IMG/VR virus record: IMGVR_UViG_3300019758_000001
Coordinates: 2,597-66,596 of that record
From: a virus
DNA: 64,000 bases
Reading direction: 5' to 3' (one strand)
The position numbers and the translations under genes were made by a program. Shown here piece by piece: positions 10,005 to 26,821 of the stretch. The notes under the pieces are model-generated. The model saw only the letters and a list, made by a program, of their open reading frames with translations. It was not told the DNA's origin and did not search any database. Position 1 is the stretch's first letter; the number at the start of each line of letters is the position of its first letter.

Positions 10005-10373
10005 TTAGAATGGGAGATCGTCCTCTTCTGGTGCAGGAGGCATGTCGGCAGCATTGAATTCTGGCATCGAAGCACTCGCAGCTTCACCTTTCTCAATTCT
10101 CCACGCTTCAAGATTCGAGAAGTAATTTACTTTCCCATCTTTCTCCCATTTACGTCCTTTGATATTAAAGTGAACCGTAATCATATCATCTACTGAGATA
10201 TCATCTAATAATTCACAGCGATCTTGAGTTGCTTGGAATTTAATAAAATCGTTCCAGTCAGGATTTCTTTCATTCTCAACTTCGATTACAAACTCTCTTT
10301 TCTTAAACTTATCACTAATCTGCTGTGTATCCTCTTTCAAGATAACTTTTCCTAATTGCTCGAAACTACTCAT
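10005..10373 (-). CDS. DUF3127 single-stranded DNA-binding-like protein
   Basis: FKKREFV...VHFNIKGRKW...YFSNLEAW and acidic DDLPF tail. Confidence 0.88.
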   Translation of the reverse strand: MSSFEQLGKVILKEDTQQISDKFKKREFVIEVENERNPDWNDFIKFQATQDRCELLDDISVDDMITVHFNIKGRKWEKDGKVNYFSNLEAWRIEKGEAASASMPEFNAADMPPAPEEDDLPF

Positions 10374-10949: not shown

Positions 10950-11450
10950 CTACTTCTCTTTTAATAATGCAAGCAAATTTGAAAATAAAATCGTTTTTAC
11001 ACCAGTTTTTTTTATGTAGTCCATTACAAACTGAGCAGGAATGCCCTTTCCACGACCTTCTATGTAATCCCAAAACATTTCAACTGATGTTATAAATGCA
11101 CCTTGACCACACTTTTCTACTATGAACTTGGCTTGATTATAAACATGCAAACTGTCATGTCTTGAGTTTTCGGTTTTTAATTCAAGTCCATGACATCTGT
11201 GATTACTAAACCACATTAAGTCTGAAACTGATTTACGCACTCCCATACCTAGTTTTGCAGCCCCCTCAGCTCCGTTCGATCCATTTGCATCATATCCTAT
11301 CAAATCATTTTCCCTCTCAGGATATCGGTCGTAATAAGCTACTACGATCGACTGTTGTAATTTCGACTCTGGTGGGAGATCTATTTTCTTTTTACGCTTC
11401 GCCATCATTTCGAGAGCCTCCTTGCGTGACGTGGGTTTCTTAGTTGCCAT
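10950..11450 (-). CDS. VRR-NUC (PD-(D/E)XK) nuclease, putative Holliday junction resolvase
   Basis: ESKLQ...GVRKSVSDL...GLELKT...Q. Confidence 0.8.
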   Translation of the reverse strand: MATKKPTSRKEALEMMAKRKKKIDLPPESKLQQSIVVAYYDRYPERENDLIGYDANGSNGAEGAAKLGMGVRKSVSDLMWFSNHRCHGLELKTENSRHDSLHVYNQAKFIVEKCGQGAFITSVEMFWDYIEGRGKGIPAQFVMDYIKKTGVKTILFSNLLALLKEK

Positions 11451-11523
11451 CCTTCAATATACAGAAAAAGCGGCAATCCACAAAGGAATTACCGCTTTAA
11501 TTGCAAAAATCAACAACAAATTT

Positions 11524-12177
11524 TTACCAACTGCCTTTAATAGTTTTCTCTCTTATACTTCTTATATATTCAGTATCAGAATTTATCAGCGCTGTGTTTT
11601 CTTCTAAATCAGAGTGGATGTATTCGAAAGACTTAATTCTGCTTGAATCACCAACGATATCTTTTAATAAGCCAATACAATTACTTGAAATCATTTTAGA
11701 TAAATCATCATTAATGTAGATATACATCAACTCGTCACACTTATACAACTCCTGCTCTTTCATCCATACTCCCAGCCAAGATTTATGATCGATATGGCAC
11801 GATGCTACAATCTTATCGTAATCCCATGCAGTAAGGAATTCTTCTGGCTTTCTAGATATATCTTCTAAATATACGCAATCTGGTGTTTTATCTTGATCTT
11901 TTCTAAATGAAAATCTACTTCTATTATTAAAGTAAAATCTCATACAAGATTCTTTATATTCTGCATCACTAAAAACATCGATAGCACTATCTCTAGTCCA
12001 TTTAGACGCATTTGAATCATCCCAGTATTCTCCGTAAAAACCAGCTTTTCTCGCATTATGTCTTGCATGTAACATCATAGCAGTAGTCATACCACCACCT
12101 CTTCCTGCTCCGATTAAAATAAAATCTGCCTTAGATTCTAATACTTTTTGTTGCATTCCTTTTTGTGCTGTAATCAT
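11524..12177 (-). CDS. Degenerate paralog of the terminase large subunit ATPase domain
   Basis: Colinear with this genome's TerL: QKGMQ/QQGMQ, GAGRGGGMT/GGSRGGGKS, VYLED/IYIDE, ASCHIDHKSWL/GSCNPNVDSWL, IKSFEYIHSDLEEN/IKSFVFIKGDLAEN. Confidence 0.85.
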   Translation of the reverse strand: MITAQKGMQQKVLESKADFILIGAGRGGGMTTAMMLHARHNARKAGFYGEYWDDSNASKWTRDSAIDVFSDAEYKESCMRFYFNNRSRFSFRKDQDKTPDCVYLEDISRKPEEFLTAWDYDKIVASCHIDHKSWLGVWMKEQELYKCDELMYIYINDDLSKMISSNCIGLLKDIVGDSSRIKSFEYIHSDLEENTALINSDTEYIRSIREKTIKGSW

Positions 12178-12194
12178 CTCTTTTGTTTTAGTTT

Positions 12195-12236
12195 ATGTGA
12201 ATATAAGTAAAAATCCCCACCGAAGCAAGGATTTTA
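12195..12236 (-). promoter_or_regulatory. Terminator hairpin overlapping a promoter for the TerL paralog
   Basis: Minus strand AAAATCCTTGCTTCGGTGGGGATTTTT followed by TATATTCAC. Confidence 0.55.
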
Positions 12237-12240
12237 ATGA

Positions 12241-13794
12241 TTATTTATACTGCCTAATTAGTCTGTAAATAAACGGGTATTTGTATCCCATCCTCAACAT
12301 CTCCTGCTTAAATTCCGCTTCACCCCTTCGAAACAAAGTTCGCCACACCCACGCTTGTTTGAAACCAGATAATTTCGCGTGAGCTTTTAACCCTTCAACT
12401 GTCATTTCATCAAAGCTATCAGCATCATTTTCGACAATCTCAATTAATTCTGCCCGCTTTTCAAGCTTGTGTCCTGAAAACCTGTGGCCGCACTTACAAA
12501 TATCAGCACTAGCTAAAACTAATCTACCACAACCATACTTACCTTTGGAATCTTTACTTTTAGGATCACACTCTTTCATTGATGGAACTCCCACTGTATC
12601 AGACTGTTCGTGAGCGAGTTCCCATTCGAAATCATCTTCCGACCTTCCTAATCGCTGAACATTTGTACCCATATCAAGAATAATACAATCTTTTTTACCT
12701 TTAGAAGCTCTAACACCCCTTGCGTATATTTGTATCATCAACGGGAGGCTCTGACTGGCTCTATTGATTATCACACAGCCTAAAGGTTTATAATCAAAAC
12801 CGATCGAGAGTATGGATATACAAATCACACCTTGAGCTACTCCATTCTCTAATGCTTTTTTAACATCAGATTGATTTATTGAATATTGCTTGTATTTCTG
12901 ATGAAGATCGTAAGTTTCTTTATAATCTAAATATCGCTCCCATCCAATCCCTTCTTTTTTCTCAGGTTCTTTTGGCTTGTTAATAGTAGATATCGTGTAG
13001 AATGTTTTAATTCCAGCTTTATTAAATTCAACCGTTGTACGAATAACATGGGCAATACTGGTGCAGAAACATAGGAATTGCCTATTCTCACCATGTTTTT
13101 TATATTGCGATATCACACCCTCGTAACGCTCAGGAGAATTAAAGTGTTCGTAATTAGATTTAGTTTGGAAATCACCAGTTGAATTATCAACCTTAATACC
13201 ACTAACGTCATCTGGAACTACAAAATATCTACATGGAACTAATCTGCCTTTCGCAATAAGTTCTTTTACAGAAATTGACGGAACTATAACGTCCCAATCT
13301 AATAATAATTGTCTCTGATTGCCTGATCTTCGGGGACTTCCAGAAAAACCCACCATTCTCGTATTATCAACTAATCCGCTTTCAAACAGGTAGTTACAAA
13401 AGCTTAAGTGTGCCTCGTCTATGAGAATTAAATCCAATGAGCTTACGAAATCACAATACTCTTGAGTTTTCATCCTAGACTGCAATGTTTGCAAAGAAGA
13501 GCAGTAGAGTAACTGATCTAAATCCGCATCTCGCTCATCATTAAGCACAATCATATCCTGCAAGCCATACTCTTCTAATGACTCATTATTTTGTCTAAGT
13601 AAAACCAATCTGTGACTAAGGACAAGAACCTTGCTCTTTTTAGCCACAGCCTGACTAGCAATATCCGCGATGCAGAAACTCTTCCCGCCACCACAAGGCA
13701 TTGTAGCCATTACGTGCGGAAATTTAGTTAGTGCATTACGGATATCATTAACGAACTTCTTCTGATAATCGAATAGTTCTATTTTACTCATCAA
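12241..13794 (-). CDS. Superfamily 2 DEAH helicase
   Basis: MPCGGGKS, LIDEAH, SGSP, GFDYK, QIYARGVR; C-terminal Cys cluster. Confidence 0.92.
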   Translation of the reverse strand: MMSKIELFDYQKKFVNDIRNALTKFPHVMATMPCGGGKSFCIADIASQAVAKKSKVLVLSHRLVLLRQNNESLEEYGLQDMIVLNDERDADLDQLLYCSSLQTLQSRMKTQEYCDFVSSLDLILIDEAHLSFCNYLFESGLVDNTRMVGFSGSPRRSGNQRQLLLDWDVIVPSISVKELIAKGRLVPCRYFVVPDDVSGIKVDNSTGDFQTKSNYEHFNSPERYEGVISQYKKHGENRQFLCFCTSIAHVIRTTVEFNKAGIKTFYTISTINKPKEPEKKEGIGWERYLDYKETYDLHQKYKQYSINQSDVKKALENGVAQGVICISILSIGFDYKPLGCVIINRASQSLPLMIQIYARGVRASKGKKDCIILDMGTNVQRLGRSEDDFEWELAHEQSDTVGVPSMKECDPKSKDSKGKYGCGRLVLASADICKCGHRFSGHKLEKRAELIEIVENDADSFDEMTVEGLKAHAKLSGFKQAWVWRTLFRRGEAEFKQEMLRMGYKYPFIYRLIRQYK

Positions 13795-23074: not shown

Positions 23075-25054
23075 TTATAGGTTATAAATTCCCTTCTTCT
23101 TAGACTTTCCTTTTTTCTTTTCTAATGTGTGTATAATAGCATAAACTAGTGCTTCAAGAAAGTCAGGTGAATGACCTAAGATAAGCTTCATCCCTTTCTT
23201 GCCAAGCATCTTAGTCTTACCATCACTTTCGTCTATCTTTAAGGCTCGTCTTTCATGCTGAAGTATTTCTCTTACGGTCATTTTACCTTTCTTACCGTAA
23301 TCAAATCTCTTGTATGATAATGGCTCGTCTATACTTAATTTAGTGTCAAGTAGTAACGATCCTAATTGCCACATAATTTGAGACTTCAACTTATCGAAAC
23401 TCTCATCATTATTAAGTGGTCTTGCATTTGGTTGAACTGCATATGCTCTTTTAAAATCAGCAAGAACCTGTCCATTACCCACTGCATCGTAATATATATC
23501 CTCTTCTCTGATATTATATTTATCGACCAATCTTCTCACTAATGCCTTTAAATCGTCAGGTCTTAAGAATGGTCTGATTTCTATATCTACAATGTGCAAT
23601 CCGTCCATTATTATAAAAACGCAAGAATCGTCACCGAGTAAAGCAACGTCAATAGCAAGCCTAAATCTACCACTCCTTTGTTCTGAGTTGTCAAACATAG
23701 CTTCCATTACTGACCTTGGAATCATTTCTTCTCCATCGTCCTTGACGTTCCAGTTTCCAGAGAAATTTCGAGCAATCTCAGCTTTCCCACCCATTGCGAT
23801 ATTTGCAACATAACTTGAGTCGGATTCGATAAGTTTTGCATTTTCTGCCAAATCACCTTTTATGAAAACGAAGCTTTTTATCATATCATATCTAGACATC
23901 CCGTACTTGTCGGCAAATTCAGGTTTCCAAGCCATATCTATAAATGTCTTAGCTTGCTGGTAAACCTCCTCTTTTGTATTTCCCCAATAAACATCATCTA
24001 CCGTACTGCCGTAAACGTAAAAATAACGAACCTTACTGTCCCTCTCTGGATCTATATATCCATCATCATTAATATACCAATCAATCCATTTTCGTAACCA
24101 ACTGTCTACGTTGGGGTTACAGCTACCATGAAGCCTATTTCTTATTCCTAATGAGTTACGGTTCGACTGAATAAGTTTTAAAACTGTATTGAATTTAACT
24201 TGGTCAATCTCATCAATATAGATGGCTGGAATCTCAAGCCCCTTAAATCTGGATTCGATCACAGAATCACTTTCATTCTCCAAGTGGTCAAACGTAACTG
24301 TAGCTCCTGATGGGAATACAAATTGTAATGCTGACCTTTTTTCTTCGCCACCAAGCGCAGGGTAAATTAATTTCGCCTTATCAAAAAGCCCACCGCCTTT
24401 AGTTAAATCCTTAAGGTTTTTACGAAACACATTGGCTGTGAATTTAGGATTACGCACATCGTATAATATATCTAACATGATAGCAAATGAGTTATGCGTA
24501 ACTATTCCATTGTCAGTCACATATAATCCATCCTCACCAGTTAATGATATACATCTACAATCCGCAACACCTGTATATCTGCAGCCTAAAACTTGCTCCA
24601 TCTGTAAATCACAACCACTCTCTTTATGCATAGGAGTGTATATTTCATAACCATTATCTAAAGCATAAGCTATTTCAGTTGTAGTTAAAACCTTTCGCTC
24701 TTTCTCATTTATAAAAACATCCCATAAATGGTCGGTAGATGCTTTTGTTGATTTTCCACTAGCAGTAGTTAGTGTGTATATATCTAGAATGCCTTTCTCA
24801 TGTATTTGAAATACAAATTGAGTGTCACCAACTGGATCTATCACTTCTGAGCCAACTTCTAAATCCCCAATCTTAACATAACCATTAGTAGTTTTTACCT
24901 TAGAGTCCTTATCCTGAGCCTTCCCACCGCCTCTTGAGCCACCGAAAACGATAAAGCTCGCATCAGCTAACAGAACCGACTCCTGCATCCCTTGCTGCCC
25001 ACAGAAATCAATATCTTTTAAAATACTATCATCTAATTCTTTTCTTGTAATCAT
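23075..25054 (-). CDS. terL: Terminase large subunit (intein-containing)
   Basis: Walker A GGSRGGGK/S, Walker B IYIDE, SCNP, nuclease motifs AIDVA, YDAVG and HSPD; start adjusted to ATG at 25054. Confidence 0.95.
   Translation of the reverse strand: MITRKELDDSILKDIDFCGQQGMQESVLLADASFIVFGGSRGGGKAQDKDSKVKTTNGYVKIGDLEVGSEVIDPVGDTQFVFQIHEKGILDIYTLTTASGKSTKASTDHLWDVFINEKERKVLTTTEIAYALDNGYEIYTPMHKESGCDLQMEQVLGCRYTGVADCRCISLTGEDGLYVTDNGIVTHNSFAIMLDILYDVRNPKFTANVFRKNLKDLTKGGGLFDKAKLIYPALGGEEKRSALQFVFPSGATVTFDHLENESDSVIESRFKGLEIPAIYIDEIDQVKFNTVLKLIQSNRNSLGIRNRLHGSCNPNVDSWLRKWIDWYINDDGYIDPERDSKVRYFYVYGSTVDDVYWGNTKEEVYQQAKTFIDMAWKPEFADKYGMSRYDMIKSFVFIKGDLAENAKLIESDSSYVANIAMGGKAEIARNFSGNWNVKDDGEEMIPRSVMEAMFDNSEQRSGRFRLAIDVALLGDDSCVFIIMDGLHIVDIEIRPFLRPDDLKALVRRLVDKYNIREEDIYYDAVGNGQVLADFKRAYAVQPNARPLNNDESFDKLKSQIMWQLGSLLLDTKLSIDEPLSYKRFDYGKKGKMTVREILQHERRALKIDESDGKTKMLGKKGMKLILGHSPDFLEALVYAIIHTLEKKKGKSKKKGIYNL
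24491..24919 (-). mobile_element. 143-aa class 3 mini-intein in the TerL Walker A motif
   Basis: Starts with Ala (AQDKDS); block B STDHLW, block F CRCISL, ends VTHN/S; no homing endonuclease. Confidence 0.9.
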
Positions 25055-25064
25055 ACATATACGT

Positions 25065-25101
25065 AAAAAGAGAGATAGCAAAAACCACCTCTCTATAGGT
25101 T
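25065..25101 (-). promoter_or_regulatory. AACCTA-NN-GAGAGGT hairpin with U tract in the terL leader
   Basis: AACCTATAGAGAGGTGG-TTTTTG-CTATCTCTC-TTTTT. Confidence 0.7.
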
Positions 25102-25149: not shown

Positions 25150-26127
25150 CTATAACGCCTGAAACATTTGCCTAACTTTGGTTGATATGTATTTATTTAC
25201 ATCTTTATTAGATAATCCATTCTTAACCATAACATCTGCCTCTTCTGAGTTAACATCTCCAACTACCCACCTAATAAGATCTCCCATCTTTTTTATGTCA
25301 ATCTCATCATTACCAAATACACTCTCAATGCCTTGATTGAATCTATTTTCGGTTACGGAATATTCAATGAATTCATTTATAGAATTTAACTTCTCTACAT
25401 CAACACTTGCTAGGGTTTTTACTTTAGATACTGAATGCTTCTCTCCCTTAACTTTAAATTGATACATGACACCGTCATACTCGCAACTCCACACAACACC
25501 TTCACCAACACCGTTATCTACACCGAAAGCTTTTGCTACTGGACATTCAAGTTCTATAGCCTTAGTTATATCCTGAAGCTCATTTTGCTTTAGCTGTGGA
25601 TTATTGAAATCAATTGTAATATTAAATGTGGCGTAATCATTGATGTTAAATATGCCATAGTCGGAGCATTTAATATCCTCACTAGGAAGCCAATATGAGT
25701 CGAAATCCTCATCATCTTGCTTTGATATCTTAATTCCGAATACGTAAAATGCCTTGTCTAGATTAGATATCCCAACTCCTTTTTGAACTCCTAATCCTGC
25801 CCATTCACCATAAATAGATACGGTAAATATATTAGCATCGATTTGATACGCATTAATAATACTGTCAAATAAAGAGCAGAAGTGAACTTTTCTACTGTCA
25901 GCGAATTTCGCAAATCCAGCATTATCTTGCTCTGGTGTTATTACGTTATTCCTTGACTGAATCCAAAAACCGTCTGTAGAATTAAAACAAACTGATGCGT
26001 TAGTTCCGTGTAGTTTCACTGTTCCTTTAAAGGTTAAAGTTGGCTTCTCTCCGTATCCATAAGCTCTATTGATGTCGGATATCGTGTTTCTAAACTGCTG
26101 AATCTTAGGGTACTTTGTGTGTTTCAT
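25150..26127 (-). CDS. RNA ligase (Rnl2-like nucleotidyltransferase)
   Basis: KLHGTN, YGEWAG, FYVF, GEGVVW, FKVKGEKH; own TAGATTTG promoter at 26154-26161. Confidence 0.85.
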   Translation of the reverse strand: MKHTKYPKIQQFRNTISDINRAYGYGEKPTLTFKGTVKLHGTNASVCFNSTDGFWIQSRNNVITPEQDNAGFAKFADSRKVHFCSLFDSIINAYQIDANIFTVSIYGEWAGLGVQKGVGISNLDKAFYVFGIKISKQDDEDFDSYWLPSEDIKCSDYGIFNINDYATFNITIDFNNPQLKQNELQDITKAIELECPVAKAFGVDNGVGEGVVWSCEYDGVMYQFKVKGEKHSVSKVKTLASVDVEKLNSINEFIEYSVTENRFNQGIESVFGNDEIDIKKMGDLIRWVVGDVNSEEADVMVKNGLSNKDVNKYISTKVRQMFQAL

Positions 26128-26227: not shown

Positions 26228-26821
26228 CTAACTAGCGTACTTATTATATAGGATATCTTTTATGCCATTACTAGATCCGATAATATTGAATAATGAAACG
26301 TAATCTGATATTACAGCATCCCTTACTTTAATCATCTCAATGGTCATGTCAGCTTTCTTGATCATCTTCTCAAAACCGAACATATTCGACACTGCTTTAT
26401 TTGCGACAGTATTAGCTTTCACATATGGGATTTTATCGTTTTTCAATAAATCAGGCAGGAGTTGATGAAGAGTCGCCATTACTTCTAGTTGATGAGATCT
26501 ACTACTTGTCATGAATTTCTCGTCATGCAATAAACGTTCGCATTCTATAAAGTATGTTCGAACCTCATCACCTTTGGTTGTTTTCTCAGCCATAGCGATA
26601 CGTTTAGCGCAATCTAACGTAATAGTATAGTCTACTCTATTATGCCCTCCACGCCCCTCTGTTTGCGTCACTTTTGGGGGAAGCAAAGAATAATCATCAC
26701 CATCTTCGAAAAATGGATTATTAATAATTCTCTTCTTAACCCAATCCGAAAACTTCTTCTTACTTCCTAGTTCCTGATGCAACTCTCTCGCATCCACTCT
26801 TCCTTCTTTAAATAATTCCAT
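26228..26821 (-). CDS. AntA/AntB-family antirepressor
   Basis: VDARELHQEL...FSDW.K.RI...GGHNRVDY.ITLD.AK.IAM...VRTYFIECE. Confidence 0.9.
   Translation of the reverse strand: MELFKEGRVDARELHQELGSKKKFSDWVKKRIINNPFFEDGDDYSLLPPKVTQTEGRGGHNRVDYTITLDCAKRIAMAEKTTKGDEVRTYFIECERLLHDEKFMTSSRSHQLEVMATLHQLLPDLLKNDKIPYVKANTVANKAVSNMFGFEKMIKKADMTIEMIKVRDAVISDYVSLFNIIGSSNGIKDILYNKYAS

What the first reader, a model, noticed from the sequence alone, without database searches (positions are those of the whole stretch)
11524..12236. Apparently inactive mini-copy of the terminase ATPase with its own promoter: candidate terminase decoy
Seen: the 217-aa ORF is colinear with the ATPase half of this phage's TerL over its whole length, with five conserved blocks. 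The Walker A Lys is Met (GAGRGGGMT), Walker B DE is swapped to ED, and the nuclease domain is absent. The frame is intact, sits among replication genes about 11 kb from terL, and follows a terminator/promoter unit, so it appears maintained and expressed before packaging. Established: Avs/AVAST STAND NTPases recognise the TerL ATPase fold. Inference: a decoy that occupies terminase sensors without activating them, or a dominant-negative subunit that delays packaging or poisons competing phages' motors.
Basis: partly seen in the sequence, partly recalled or inferred. Interest (0 to 1): 0.82.

Follow-up and report, generated by a model that had tools for sequence, protein, structure and literature searches.

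The report
Dead mini-copy of terminase ATPase
This uncultured phage keeps a small, intact gene that is a stripped-down, enzymatically dead copy of the ATP-burning half of its own DNA-packaging motor; similar copies have been briefly noted in other phages, and what they do is still unknown.

Summary
ORF217 (window 11524-12177, minus strand) is a true homologue of the ATPase domain of this phage's large terminase (TerL, 23075-25081): profile-profile probability 99.8%, E 1.2e-29, over 226 columns. A TerL fold appears in my own model and in an independent Atlas model. The Walker A lysine is Met or Val in 5 of 5 family members. Walker B DE reads ED in 3 of 5. The probable arginine-finger segment is deleted, and there is no nuclease domain. 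The family is tiny: 5 proteins found in two very large protein libraries. They stay open at 35-72% identity with only in-frame indels, although one is cut short at the C-terminus, so selection maintains the gene. An "own promoter" is not shown; two hairpins flank the gene. The decoy and dominant-negative readings remain untested: the one complex prediction gave no answer. My best guess, about 0.35, is a non-catalytic binding subunit that modulates the packaging motor. The kind is not new. A "truncated large terminase" was noted in Rak2-like jumbo phages (PMC5259590). This scan had already logged dead TerL-ATPase copies on other DNA, in at least 17 genomes. This one is an independent, rare family lying 10.9 kb from terL among replication genes.

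The parts
11524..12177 (-). ORF217, the mini-TerL: a 217-aa, catalytically dead copy of the TerL ATPase domain. Met30 replaces the Walker A Lys (codon 12088-12090). Glu105-Asp106 stand at the Walker B position (11860-11865).
12210..12235 (-). Hairpin between the helicase stop and the ORF217 start: 11-bp stem, UUCG loop, then UUUUUAC. A weak terminator-like or RNA-stability element.
   Evidence: -10.6 kcal/mol, z -2.45
11467..11498 (-). Strong intrinsic-terminator-like hairpin 26 nt after the ORF217 stop, followed by a U run.
   Evidence: -19.9 kcal/mol, z -4.89, 0 of 200 shuffles as good
23075..25081 (-). terL, the full large terminase and the functional paralogue (ATPase + nuclease). The start on record is probably Met10, giving 659 aa (P0007).
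24491..24919 (-). 143-aa mini-intein inside the TerL P-loop, between GGGK and S. This is exactly the position where the mini-copy has Met-Thr.
   Evidence: Intein-less relatives read GGGKS without a break.
12241..13794 (-). SF2 (ResIII/DEAD) DNA helicase directly upstream. This is context: ORF217 is the last gene before the strong terminator.

Best explanation
ORF217 is a pseudoenzyme: a duplicate of the ATPase domain of this phage lineage's own large terminase. It has lost catalysis and the nuclease half, and selection keeps it.

Shown:
- It is homologous to TerL over its whole length and has the TerL ATPase fold.
- The Walker A Lys is lost in 5 of 5 members.
- The Walker B catalytic Glu is lost.
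- 29 of 56 strongly conserved TerL positions are lost, including all of the highly conserved arginines.
- The Q-motif, the first strand, the glycine-rich loop with its Thr-Thr, and the last strand plus lid helices are kept. These elements frame the nucleotide pocket, which in terminase rings lies at the subunit interface.

Inferred mechanism (about 0.35): the protein acts by binding, not by catalysis. It would be a non-catalytic partner of TerL that docks where a neighbouring TerL ATPase domain would dock. It can neither hydrolyse ATP nor offer an arginine finger. It would therefore cap or slow motor assembly, or restrain TerL while the genome is being replicated.

Its place as the last gene of a helicase-containing unit, ending at a strong terminator, would give it replication-phase timing. 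That timing is itself an inference.
For: Homology:
- hhalign probability 99.8, E 1.2e-29, 226 aligned columns.
- An HMM of 4 minis hits 80 of 80 TerLs. The best 30 all come from the window's own major TerL clade.

Fold:
- AlphaFold2 with a 31-row alignment gives pLDDT 88.2, pTM 0.87.
- The 14 best PDB matches are all TerL (P74-26, Sf6, D6E, T4), at E 3e-5 to 4e-3.
- BFVD TerLs match at TM up to 0.82 by query length.
- The Atlas's own model, independent of my alignment, matches TerL models at TM 0.79-0.87.

Dead site:
- Lys is replaced by Met or Val in 5 of 5 members, against Lys in 26 of 26 TerLs.
- Of 56 TerL columns conserved at 85% or more in 80 TerLs, 12 are kept, 15 partly kept and 29 lost.
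- The losses include the Walker B Asp and Glu, the C-motif Asn-Pro, the Gly of the deleted RFKG segment and six conserved Arg columns.

Selection:
- The 5 members share 35-72% identity and differ only by in-frame indels.
- 7.6% of possible nonsynonymous single-base changes in this ORF would create a stop. The 102 differing residues against P0004 would therefore give about 8 stops under neutrality (my arithmetic).
- 21 of the 37 invariant family positions fall within residues 1-38.

Rate, for the one phage pair with both genes:
- This assumes that mini P0003 and TerL P0086 share the 65,981-bp contig.
- Mini 72.4% identity, TerL ATPase 87.7%, intein 74.8%, nuclease part 58.0%.

Ring logic: in P74-26 TerL, R139 is a trans-acting finger, and R139 and R235 make contacts between subunits (bioRxiv 10.1101/080440, passages read).
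Against: - No binding evidence of any kind was obtained.
- The gene lies 10.9 kb from terL, among replication genes, not in the packaging module.
- It lacks the about 27-residue N-terminal extension of TerL and the whole C-terminal half. By my recall of lambda and other systems, these are the usual TerS and portal contact regions.
- The loss of conserved arginines may also have destroyed the ring interface.
- The family is very rare. Only 5 proteins were found: 2 hits beyond the query's own sequence in the 5.8-billion-cluster library, 1 more in the 1.84-billion-representative library, plus 1 cluster mate.
- Most relatives of this TerL in those libraries have no detectable mini-copy, so it is dispensable for packaging.
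- One member (P0005, 193 aa) is cut short at the C-terminus compared with its near-twin P0006.
- No DNA of the homologues could be fetched, so dN/dS was not measured.
- Naming RFKG as the arginine finger rests only on its position, 13 residues before the catalytic Glu.
Confidence: 0.4

Rival explanations
1. Exapted replication or recombination accessory. The dead ATPase domain now serves the neighbouring SF2 helicase or another replication protein, as an adaptor, loader or DNA-end binder, and has nothing more to do with packaging.
For: - It sits directly after the helicase and before a strong terminator, in a block with a DnaQ-like exonuclease, an exonuclease, SSB and MazG.
- It is far from terL.
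- The TerL ATPase domain is the main DNA-gripping part of the motor (10.1101/080440, passages read).
Against: - The conserved basic residues of TerL, the likely DNA and ATP contacts, are nearly all lost.
- Helicases of this type are common, while the mini-copy is found in only 5 proteins.
- Synteny in the relatives could not be checked.
Confidence: 0.2
2. Immune decoy or anti-sensor. The protein mimics the TerL ATPase domain and occupies TerL-sensing Avs/STAND receptors without triggering them.
For: - The TerL ATPase fold is kept while catalysis is lost.
- Avs1-3 are stated to sense terminase, and Avs1-4 to recognise the folds of terminase and portal by direct binding (PMC13581612, passages read).
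- AlphaFold-Multimer placed the ATPase domain of a TerL against the KpAvs2 sensor domain (PMC11564622).
- The mini evolves about 2.2 times as fast as the TerL ATPase domain in the one comparable phage pair (27.6% against 12.3% differing residues).
Against: - The only published small protein with a weak TerL-ATPase-like fold, Ksap2, binds and activates KpAvs2. A look-alike is as likely to be a liability as a decoy.
- No ligand that blinds a STAND receptor in this way turned up in my searches.
- The host and its defences are unknown.
- The family is rare, which fits poorly with a generally useful counter-defence.
Confidence: 0.1
3. Ligand binder. The retained Q-motif, glycine-rich loop, Thr-Thr and lid still hold a nucleotide or nucleotide-like molecule, so that the protein senses or sequesters it.
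For: - 21 of 37 invariant family positions lie in residues 1-38, the pocket-forming part.
- The Q-motif Gly and Gln are invariant in all 31 aligned minis and TerLs.
- The Lys is replaced by hydrophobic Met or Val (Met in 3, Val in 2 of 5) rather than by varied residues.
Against: - Loss of the P-loop Lys, the Walker B pair and the arginines usually weakens triphosphate binding greatly (general knowledge of P-loop NTPases).
Confidence: 0.1
4. Functionless remnant of a terL duplication that is on its way out.
For: - The family is very rare.
- One of 5 members is truncated.
- Every catalytic feature is gone.
Against: - The frames stay open at 35-72% identity, with in-frame indels only.
- About 8 stops would be expected under neutrality for the window-P0004 pair.
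- Conservation is strongly uneven along the protein.
- The model is confident and compact.
Confidence: 0.05

Closest known systems
'Truncated large terminase' genes of Rak2-like jumbo phages (CBB_274 of vB_PcaM_CBB; also reported for Sinorhizobium phages phiM12 and phiN3). Source: Buttimer et al. 2017, PMC5259590, section 'Terminase and DNA packing', passages read.
   Same: A second gene carrying only an incomplete terminase ATPase-type domain, in a genome that also has a complete TerL. Its function is unknown.
   Different: - Those genes lie next to terL in jumbo myoviruses. This one lies 10.9 kb away, among replication genes of a 66.6-kb phage.
- No sequence relation: tblastn of ORF217 against 50,697 phage records found nothing.
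- 121Q gp3, which scan notes name as a member, falls in PHROG 27915, not 979. It shows no BLASTP or Pfam similarity to its own TerL.
- So this is an independent origin.
This phage's own TerL ATPase domain (Terminase_6N type, PF03237) and solved TerL ATPase domains (P74-26 4ZNL, Sf6 gp2 4IDH, D6E 5OEA, T4 gp17 3CPE)
   Same: The fold, the order of motifs, the Q-motif, the P-loop glycines, the last strand and the lid. The protein ends exactly at the domain border.
   Different: No Walker A Lys, no catalytic Glu, no C-motif Asn-Pro, no RFKG segment, no N-terminal extension and no nuclease domain. It is 217 aa, against about 294 aligned ATPase residues in TerL.
Ksap2 (Bas60_220), a small phage protein with weak structural likeness to the D6E TerL ATPase domain (PMC11564622, passages read)
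   Same: A small phage protein, restricted to a narrow phage group, that resembles the TerL ATPase domain and works by being bound.
   Different: Ksap2 has no detectable sequence homology to TerL, and it activates KpAvs2. ORF217 is a clear sequence homologue of its own TerL, and its partners are unknown.
Pham3880 'terminase-like protein' of cluster C1 mycobacteriophages (PMC5050341, passages read)
   Same: An extra terminase-like ATPase protein that differs from the phage's TerL.
   Different: Pham3880 is drawn with P-loop, Walker B and C-motif and carries an intein, so it appears catalytically competent. ORF217 is dead and has no intein.
Dead paralogues that regulate active ring or oligomeric enzymes (pseudoenzymes in general; search listings and abstracts only of PMC10211241 and PMC7605207; clamp-loader delta and delta-prime recalled)
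   Same: A duplicate that loses catalysis and is kept as a binding partner.
   Different: No hetero-complex has been shown for any terminase copy.

Membership tests
Large terminase ATPase domain (Terminase_6N-type ASCE P-loop ATPase) | Sequence and fold homology to the TerL ATPase domain | tested here: met
   - hhalign probability 99.8, E 1.2e-29.
- The 14 best PDB matches are all TerL.
- The Atlas's own model matches TerL models at TM 0.79-0.87.
- The Pfam model itself does not match: 0 families at E up to 10.
Large terminase ATPase domain (Terminase_6N-type ASCE P-loop ATPase) | Walker A GxxxxGK[ST] with the invariant Lys | tested here: not met
   Met in 3 of 5 and Val in 2 of 5 family members. 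Lys in 26 of 26 aligned intein-less TerLs.
Large terminase ATPase domain (Terminase_6N-type ASCE P-loop ATPase) | Walker B hhhhDE with the catalytic Glu | tested here: not met
   VYLED or IYIED in 3 of 5 members, VYVEC in 2 of 5. In TerLs the Asp is 93% and the Glu 100% conserved.
Large terminase ATPase domain (Terminase_6N-type ASCE P-loop ATPase) | Trans-acting arginine finger and C (coupling) motif | tested here: not met
   The RFKG segment is deleted. The C-motif Asn-Pro, 100% conserved in TerLs, is replaced. Calling RFKG the finger is an inference from its position, by analogy with P74-26 R139.
Large terminase (whole enzyme) | C-terminal RNase H-like nuclease domain | tested here: not met
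   The ORF stops at the domain border. There is no second nuclease-domain copy in the genome.
'Truncated large terminase' / dead TerL-ATPase paralogues of phages | A second, incomplete terminase ATPase-type gene beside a complete TerL in one genome | tested here: met
   The kind is described in PMC5259590.
'Truncated large terminase' / dead TerL-ATPase paralogues of phages | Lies next to terL | tested here: not met
   10.9 kb apart, with the portal, exonucleases and the helicase between them.
'Truncated large terminase' / dead TerL-ATPase paralogues of phages | Common descent with the Rak2-like family | tested here: not met
   - No tblastn match in 50,697 phage records.
- 121Q gp3 is in PHROG 27915; ORF217 hits PHROG 979.
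- The minis form one clade that attaches to this TerL lineage.
Anti-Avs decoy | Binds a TerL-sensing STAND receptor without activating it | not testable with these tools
   The host and its defence genes are unknown, and no Avs sequence was at hand. Only literature passages were read.

The most novel reading that the evidence does not exclude
The mini-TerL is a molecular mimic used in conflict rather than in assembly. Made with the replication genes, it would present a TerL-ATPase-shaped surface with a filled but inert nucleotide pocket. It could blind host sensors of terminase (Avs-type STANDs), or it could poison the packaging motors of competing phages or satellites. In either case the phage's own TerL would be spared. 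If so, the many unexplained 'truncated terminases' of other phages might share this job.
Probability: 0.1. Interest if true: 0.85.

Novelty: new member of a known kind. Interest (0 to 1): 0.42.

Why it matters
Half-length, catalytically dead copies of the packaging motor keep turning up in unrelated phages. One paper noted them, and this scan has logged them in at least 17 other genomes. Nobody knows what they do.

This case adds an independently arisen family with three useful features:
- It sits away from terL, in a replication block bounded by hairpins.
- It shows a clear pattern of what is kept (the pocket-framing elements and the lid) and what is lost (every catalytic residue and every conserved arginine).
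- It gives a rate comparison with TerL in the same pair of phages.

If such proteins regulate motor assembly or fool terminase sensors, that would be a new layer of control in phage packaging or in the arms race with the host. Taken alone, this instance is a rare gene in an uncultured phage.

Tried and rejected
1. **Complex prediction** of the mini (alignment A6) with an intein-less TerL relative (alignment A5, first row P0009, 523 aa). The verdict was 'no answer', score 0.00 in both runs, and the controls were not folded. This is no evidence either way.

2. **Genomic context and DNA of the homologues.**
   - The search for related loci with the mini family found no mini in viral contigs or genome contigs.
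   - In metagenome contigs it found only a TerL relative.
   - Five TerL-relative fragments of 7-18 kb hold only their TerL.
   - So neither synteny nor dN/dS could be measured.

3. **Population variation.** All 13 listed holders are microbial-mat metagenome runs, and no RNA holder is listed. I laid 4 of the 13 runs. The listed pieces over the ORF (X3 11302-12129, X8 11856-12272, X10 11857-12126) were identical to the window. All 40 differences shown lie at 10044-10302 (the SSB gene); 48 more were not shown. No usable polymorphism came of it.

4. **First AlphaFold2 run** with only the 5 family members: pLDDT 46.9, unusable. The second run used TerL rows as well, so its TerL fold is partly built in. 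The Atlas model serves as the independent check.

5. **Sequence searches that found nothing.**
   - Pfam: 0 families.
   - PDB by profile: only chance hits, E 0.16 or worse.
   - The 'longer proteins' search with the family: none of the 8000 scored candidates reached E 0.01.
   - megablast of 7 kb of the window: no match.
   - tblastn of the mini against the phage records: no match.
   - The TerL family profile against the PDB matched nuclease domains only, so ATPase motifs could not be tied to solved residues by sequence.

6. **Split-TerL idea** (ATPase and nuclease as separate genes): rejected. A complete TerL exists and there is no second nuclease copy.

7. **Check of the scan's lead on 121Q gp3.** The gene lies directly upstream of terL, but BLASTP and Pfam show no similarity to its TerL. 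That claim therefore stays unverified by me. The CBB paper passage was verified.

8. **CHA_P1's 272-aa TerL-like protein** (a BFVD hit). It is not among the CDS of the first 50 kb by length, and PF03237 did not find it in the record. Dropped.

9. **Literature.**
   - Four searches returned nothing on a dead TerL paralogue, decoy or dominant-negative subunit: 'terminase, decoy, Avs', 'large terminase, paralog, Walker A, inactive' (0 papers), 'terminase, dominant negative, ATPase domain, packaging' (0 papers) and the six-term search.
   - 'truncated large terminase' as a phrase: 0 papers.
   - 'vB_PcaM_CBB, terminase, truncated' found the one relevant paper.
The Ksap2 homologue lists (Supplementary Data S9 of PMC11564622) were not seen.
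Full report
**What is there.** The window is nearly all of a 66,596-bp viral record with direct terminal repeats. ORF217 runs from 12177 to 11524 on the minus strand and encodes 217 aa. It follows an SF2 helicase (12241-13794). It lies in a minus-strand block with a DnaQ-like exonuclease, another exonuclease, SSB and MazG. Further upstream on the same strand are an AntA-type gene, an RNA ligase, terL (23075-25081), a 472-aa unknown and the portal.

An 11-bp hairpin with a UUCG loop separates the helicase from the ORF (-10.6 kcal/mol, z -2.45). A much stronger hairpin plus U run follows the ORF's stop (-19.9 kcal/mol, z -4.89). Terminator-like sites are enriched in this stretch: 8 against 2.7 +/- 1.6 in shuffles. 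Sigma-70-like promoter sites are not: 18 against 23.8 +/- 5.2. A private promoter is therefore not shown. One TerL relative is named by its source as coming from an Arenibacter assembly. That is a weak hint of a flavobacterial host, whose promoters this scan would not cover.

**Is it a terminase copy?** Yes.
- BLASTP against the phage's own TerL gives two blocks of 54% identity, at the two ends of the ATPase domain.
- PHROG 979 (terminase large subunit) matches at E 1.4e-6. Pfam finds nothing.
- I collected four homologues: P0003 (72% identical), P0004 (53%), and P0006 and P0005 (about 35%).
- I also collected 77 TerL relatives.
- A profile of the 5 minis aligned to a profile of 26 intein-less TerLs with probability 99.8 and E 1.2e-29. 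The match covers 226 columns, from the Q-motif to the GNW motif that ends the ATPase domain.
- An HMM built from 4 minis hit 80 of 80 TerLs. The 30 best hits all belong to the major clade that holds the window's TerL.
- In a quick maximum-likelihood tree of 85 rows the 5 minis form one group (SH-aLRT 96) on a long branch, so their exact point of attachment is unsure.

**Fold.**
- With the 5 minis alone, AlphaFold2 failed (pLDDT 46.9).
- With the TerLs added to the alignment, the model reached pLDDT 88.2 and pTM 0.87.
- The 14 best PDB matches are all large terminases (P74-26, Sf6, D6E, T4), at E 3e-5 to 4e-3 and TM 0.49-0.59 by query length.
- BFVD matches are TerLs at TM up to 0.82.
- That model leans on TerL rows, so the independent check matters. 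The ESM Atlas holds its own model of this very protein (pTM 0.81), and it matches TerL models at TM 0.79-0.87 over residues 1-217.

**What was lost and what was kept.**
- TerL reads GGSRGGGK, then a 143-aa mini-intein (24491-24919), then SFAIML. Intein-less relatives read GGGKS without a break.
- The mini reads GAGRGGGMTTAMML. The lysine is Met in 3 members and Val in 2.
- Walker B IYIDE has become VYLED or IYIED in 3 of 5 members and VYVEC in 2 of 5.
- I examined the 56 columns that are at least 85% conserved among 80 TerLs within the shared span. The minis keep 12, partly keep 15 and have lost 29.
- The losses include the Walker B pair, the C-motif Asn-Pro and the conserved Gly of RFKG. They also include six conserved arginine columns (P0007 positions 211, 299, 321, 338 and 343, the last kept in one member).
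- The 12-residue segment that holds RFKG is deleted in the three closest members. It lies 13 residues before the catalytic Glu. By analogy with the trans-acting finger R139 of P74-26 (10.1101/080440, passages read), I take it to be the arginine finger. This is an inference.
- The minis keep the Q-motif Gly and Gln, the first strand, the glycine-rich loop with Thr-Thr and the Trp after the C-motif.
- They also keep the block IKSF.YI..DL.EN.AL..SD..Y up to G.W. 21 of the 37 invariant family positions fall within residues 1-38.
- The about 27-residue N-terminal extension of TerL and the whole nuclease domain are absent. The genome holds no separate nuclease copy.

**Is it maintained?**
- The family is tiny. 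A word-indexed search of 5.8 billion clusters gave 2 relatives. An exhaustive HMMER pass over 1.84 billion representatives gave 1 more. One cluster mate was added.
- Even so, the frames are open at 35-72% identity, and all indels between full-length members are in frame.
- 7.6% of possible nonsynonymous single-base changes in this ORF would create a stop. The 102 differing residues between the window and P0004 would therefore bring about 8 stops under neutrality (my arithmetic).
- Conservation is strongly uneven along the protein.
- Against this, P0005 (193 aa) ends early compared with its near-twin P0006.
- One phage pair has both genes. I take mini P0003 and TerL P0086 to lie on the same 65,981-bp contig, because they share contig length and source. 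In that pair the mini is 72.4% identical. The homologous TerL ATPase part is 87.7%, the intein 74.8% and the nuclease part 58.0%.
- So the mini evolves about twice as fast as its parent domain, but not faster than other parts of TerL.
- dN/dS could not be measured.

**How it may work.** Catalysis is excluded, so the protein must act by binding. The pattern of retention (pocket-forming elements and lid) and of loss (Lys, Glu, arginines) describes a subunit with three properties. It could still present the face that meets a neighbouring ATPase domain in a terminase ring. It could not hydrolyse ATP. It could not activate a neighbour.

I therefore favour, at about 0.35, a non-catalytic partner of TerL that caps or slows motor assembly, or restrains TerL during replication. 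The rivals are:
- an accessory of the neighbouring helicase or of replication (0.2);
- an Avs decoy (0.1);
- a nucleotide-type ligand binder (0.1);
- a decaying remnant (0.05).

The one complex prediction that I could run gave no answer and counts for nothing. Published work on KpAvs2 shows that Ksap2, a small protein with weak TerL-ATPase likeness, activates the receptor (PMC11564622). A simple decoy is thus not the default expectation.

**Comparison with what is known.**
- Buttimer et al. 2017 (PMC5259590, passages read) report that phage CBB has two proteins with the gp17 terminase domain. [quoted passage not shown] - This scan's own notes list dead TerL-ATPase copies in at least 17 other genomes (jumbo phages, P1-type phage-plasmids, T4-like and rumen phages). 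So the scan has found this kind before, on other DNA.
- I verified the paper passage. I could not verify by BLASTP or Pfam that 121Q gp3 resembles its TerL.
- ORF217 shares no detectable sequence with those families and branches from its own TerL lineage. It is an independent origin of the same kind of gene.
- It differs in where it sits: 10.9 kb from terL, behind a helicase, between two hairpins. It also differs in its parent, a TerL with a P-loop intein.
- My searches found no paper on the function of any such copy.

**Verdict.** This is a new member of a known but unexplained kind, of moderate interest.

Noticed in passing
window 24491-24919 (minus), inside terL: A 143-aa mini-intein without an endonuclease splits the TerL P-loop between GGGK and S. 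It starts with Ala and ends with His-Asn. The TerL of the phage that carries mini P0003 has it too (75% identical). More distant TerL relatives of about 887-913 aa carry LAGLIDADG-type intein domains instead.
   Followed up: partly
L004 6330-6480 (the same contig as L006) and L005 about 865-960: In two IMG/VR records the TerL relative has a frame break exactly at the P-loop. The N-terminal part ends ...FGGN in one frame, and the rest (STRGGGKSYAMML...) continues in another. It looks like a 5-base insert. It could be a real defect, a recoding site or a shared assembly error.
   Followed up: partly
window 26228-26821 (minus); L004 5549-6211; protein P0070: An AntA/Bro-type DNA-binding gene lies upstream of terL, both in the window and in a relative. 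One TerL relative (P0070, 735 aa) has a Bro-N domain (PF02498) fused to Terminase_6N. No recognisable small terminase was found. This protein may be the DNA-recognition partner of TerL.
   Followed up: no
window 25150-26127 (minus): An RNA ligase gene (PHROG 548, E 3.2e-64) sits between the AntA-type gene and terL, an odd place for it.
   Followed up: no
window 10005-10373 (minus), the SSB gene: Contigs from four microbial-mat runs that are only 80-95% alike pile up on the SSB gene alone, with many substitutions and paired 1-base indels. They are probably conserved SSB genes of other phages in the same mats.
   Followed up: no
BFVD entry V5JWI7 (Pseudomonas phage CHA_P1, 272 aa); L018: An uncharacterised 272-aa protein of a cultured phage matches the mini-TerL model (E 3.5e-10, TM 0.69 by query length). 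Pfam Terminase_6N finds only the real TerL in that genome. It may be another ATPase-only terminase look-alike.
   Followed up: partly
window 24170 and 24735 (inside terL): In all four laid runs, contigs match terL only from 24735 onwards; in three of the four (X3, X6, X8), others match only from 24170 onwards. Before these points the contigs carry unlike sequence. This suggests related phages in the mats with a different or absent intein, or a mosaic terL.
   Followed up: no
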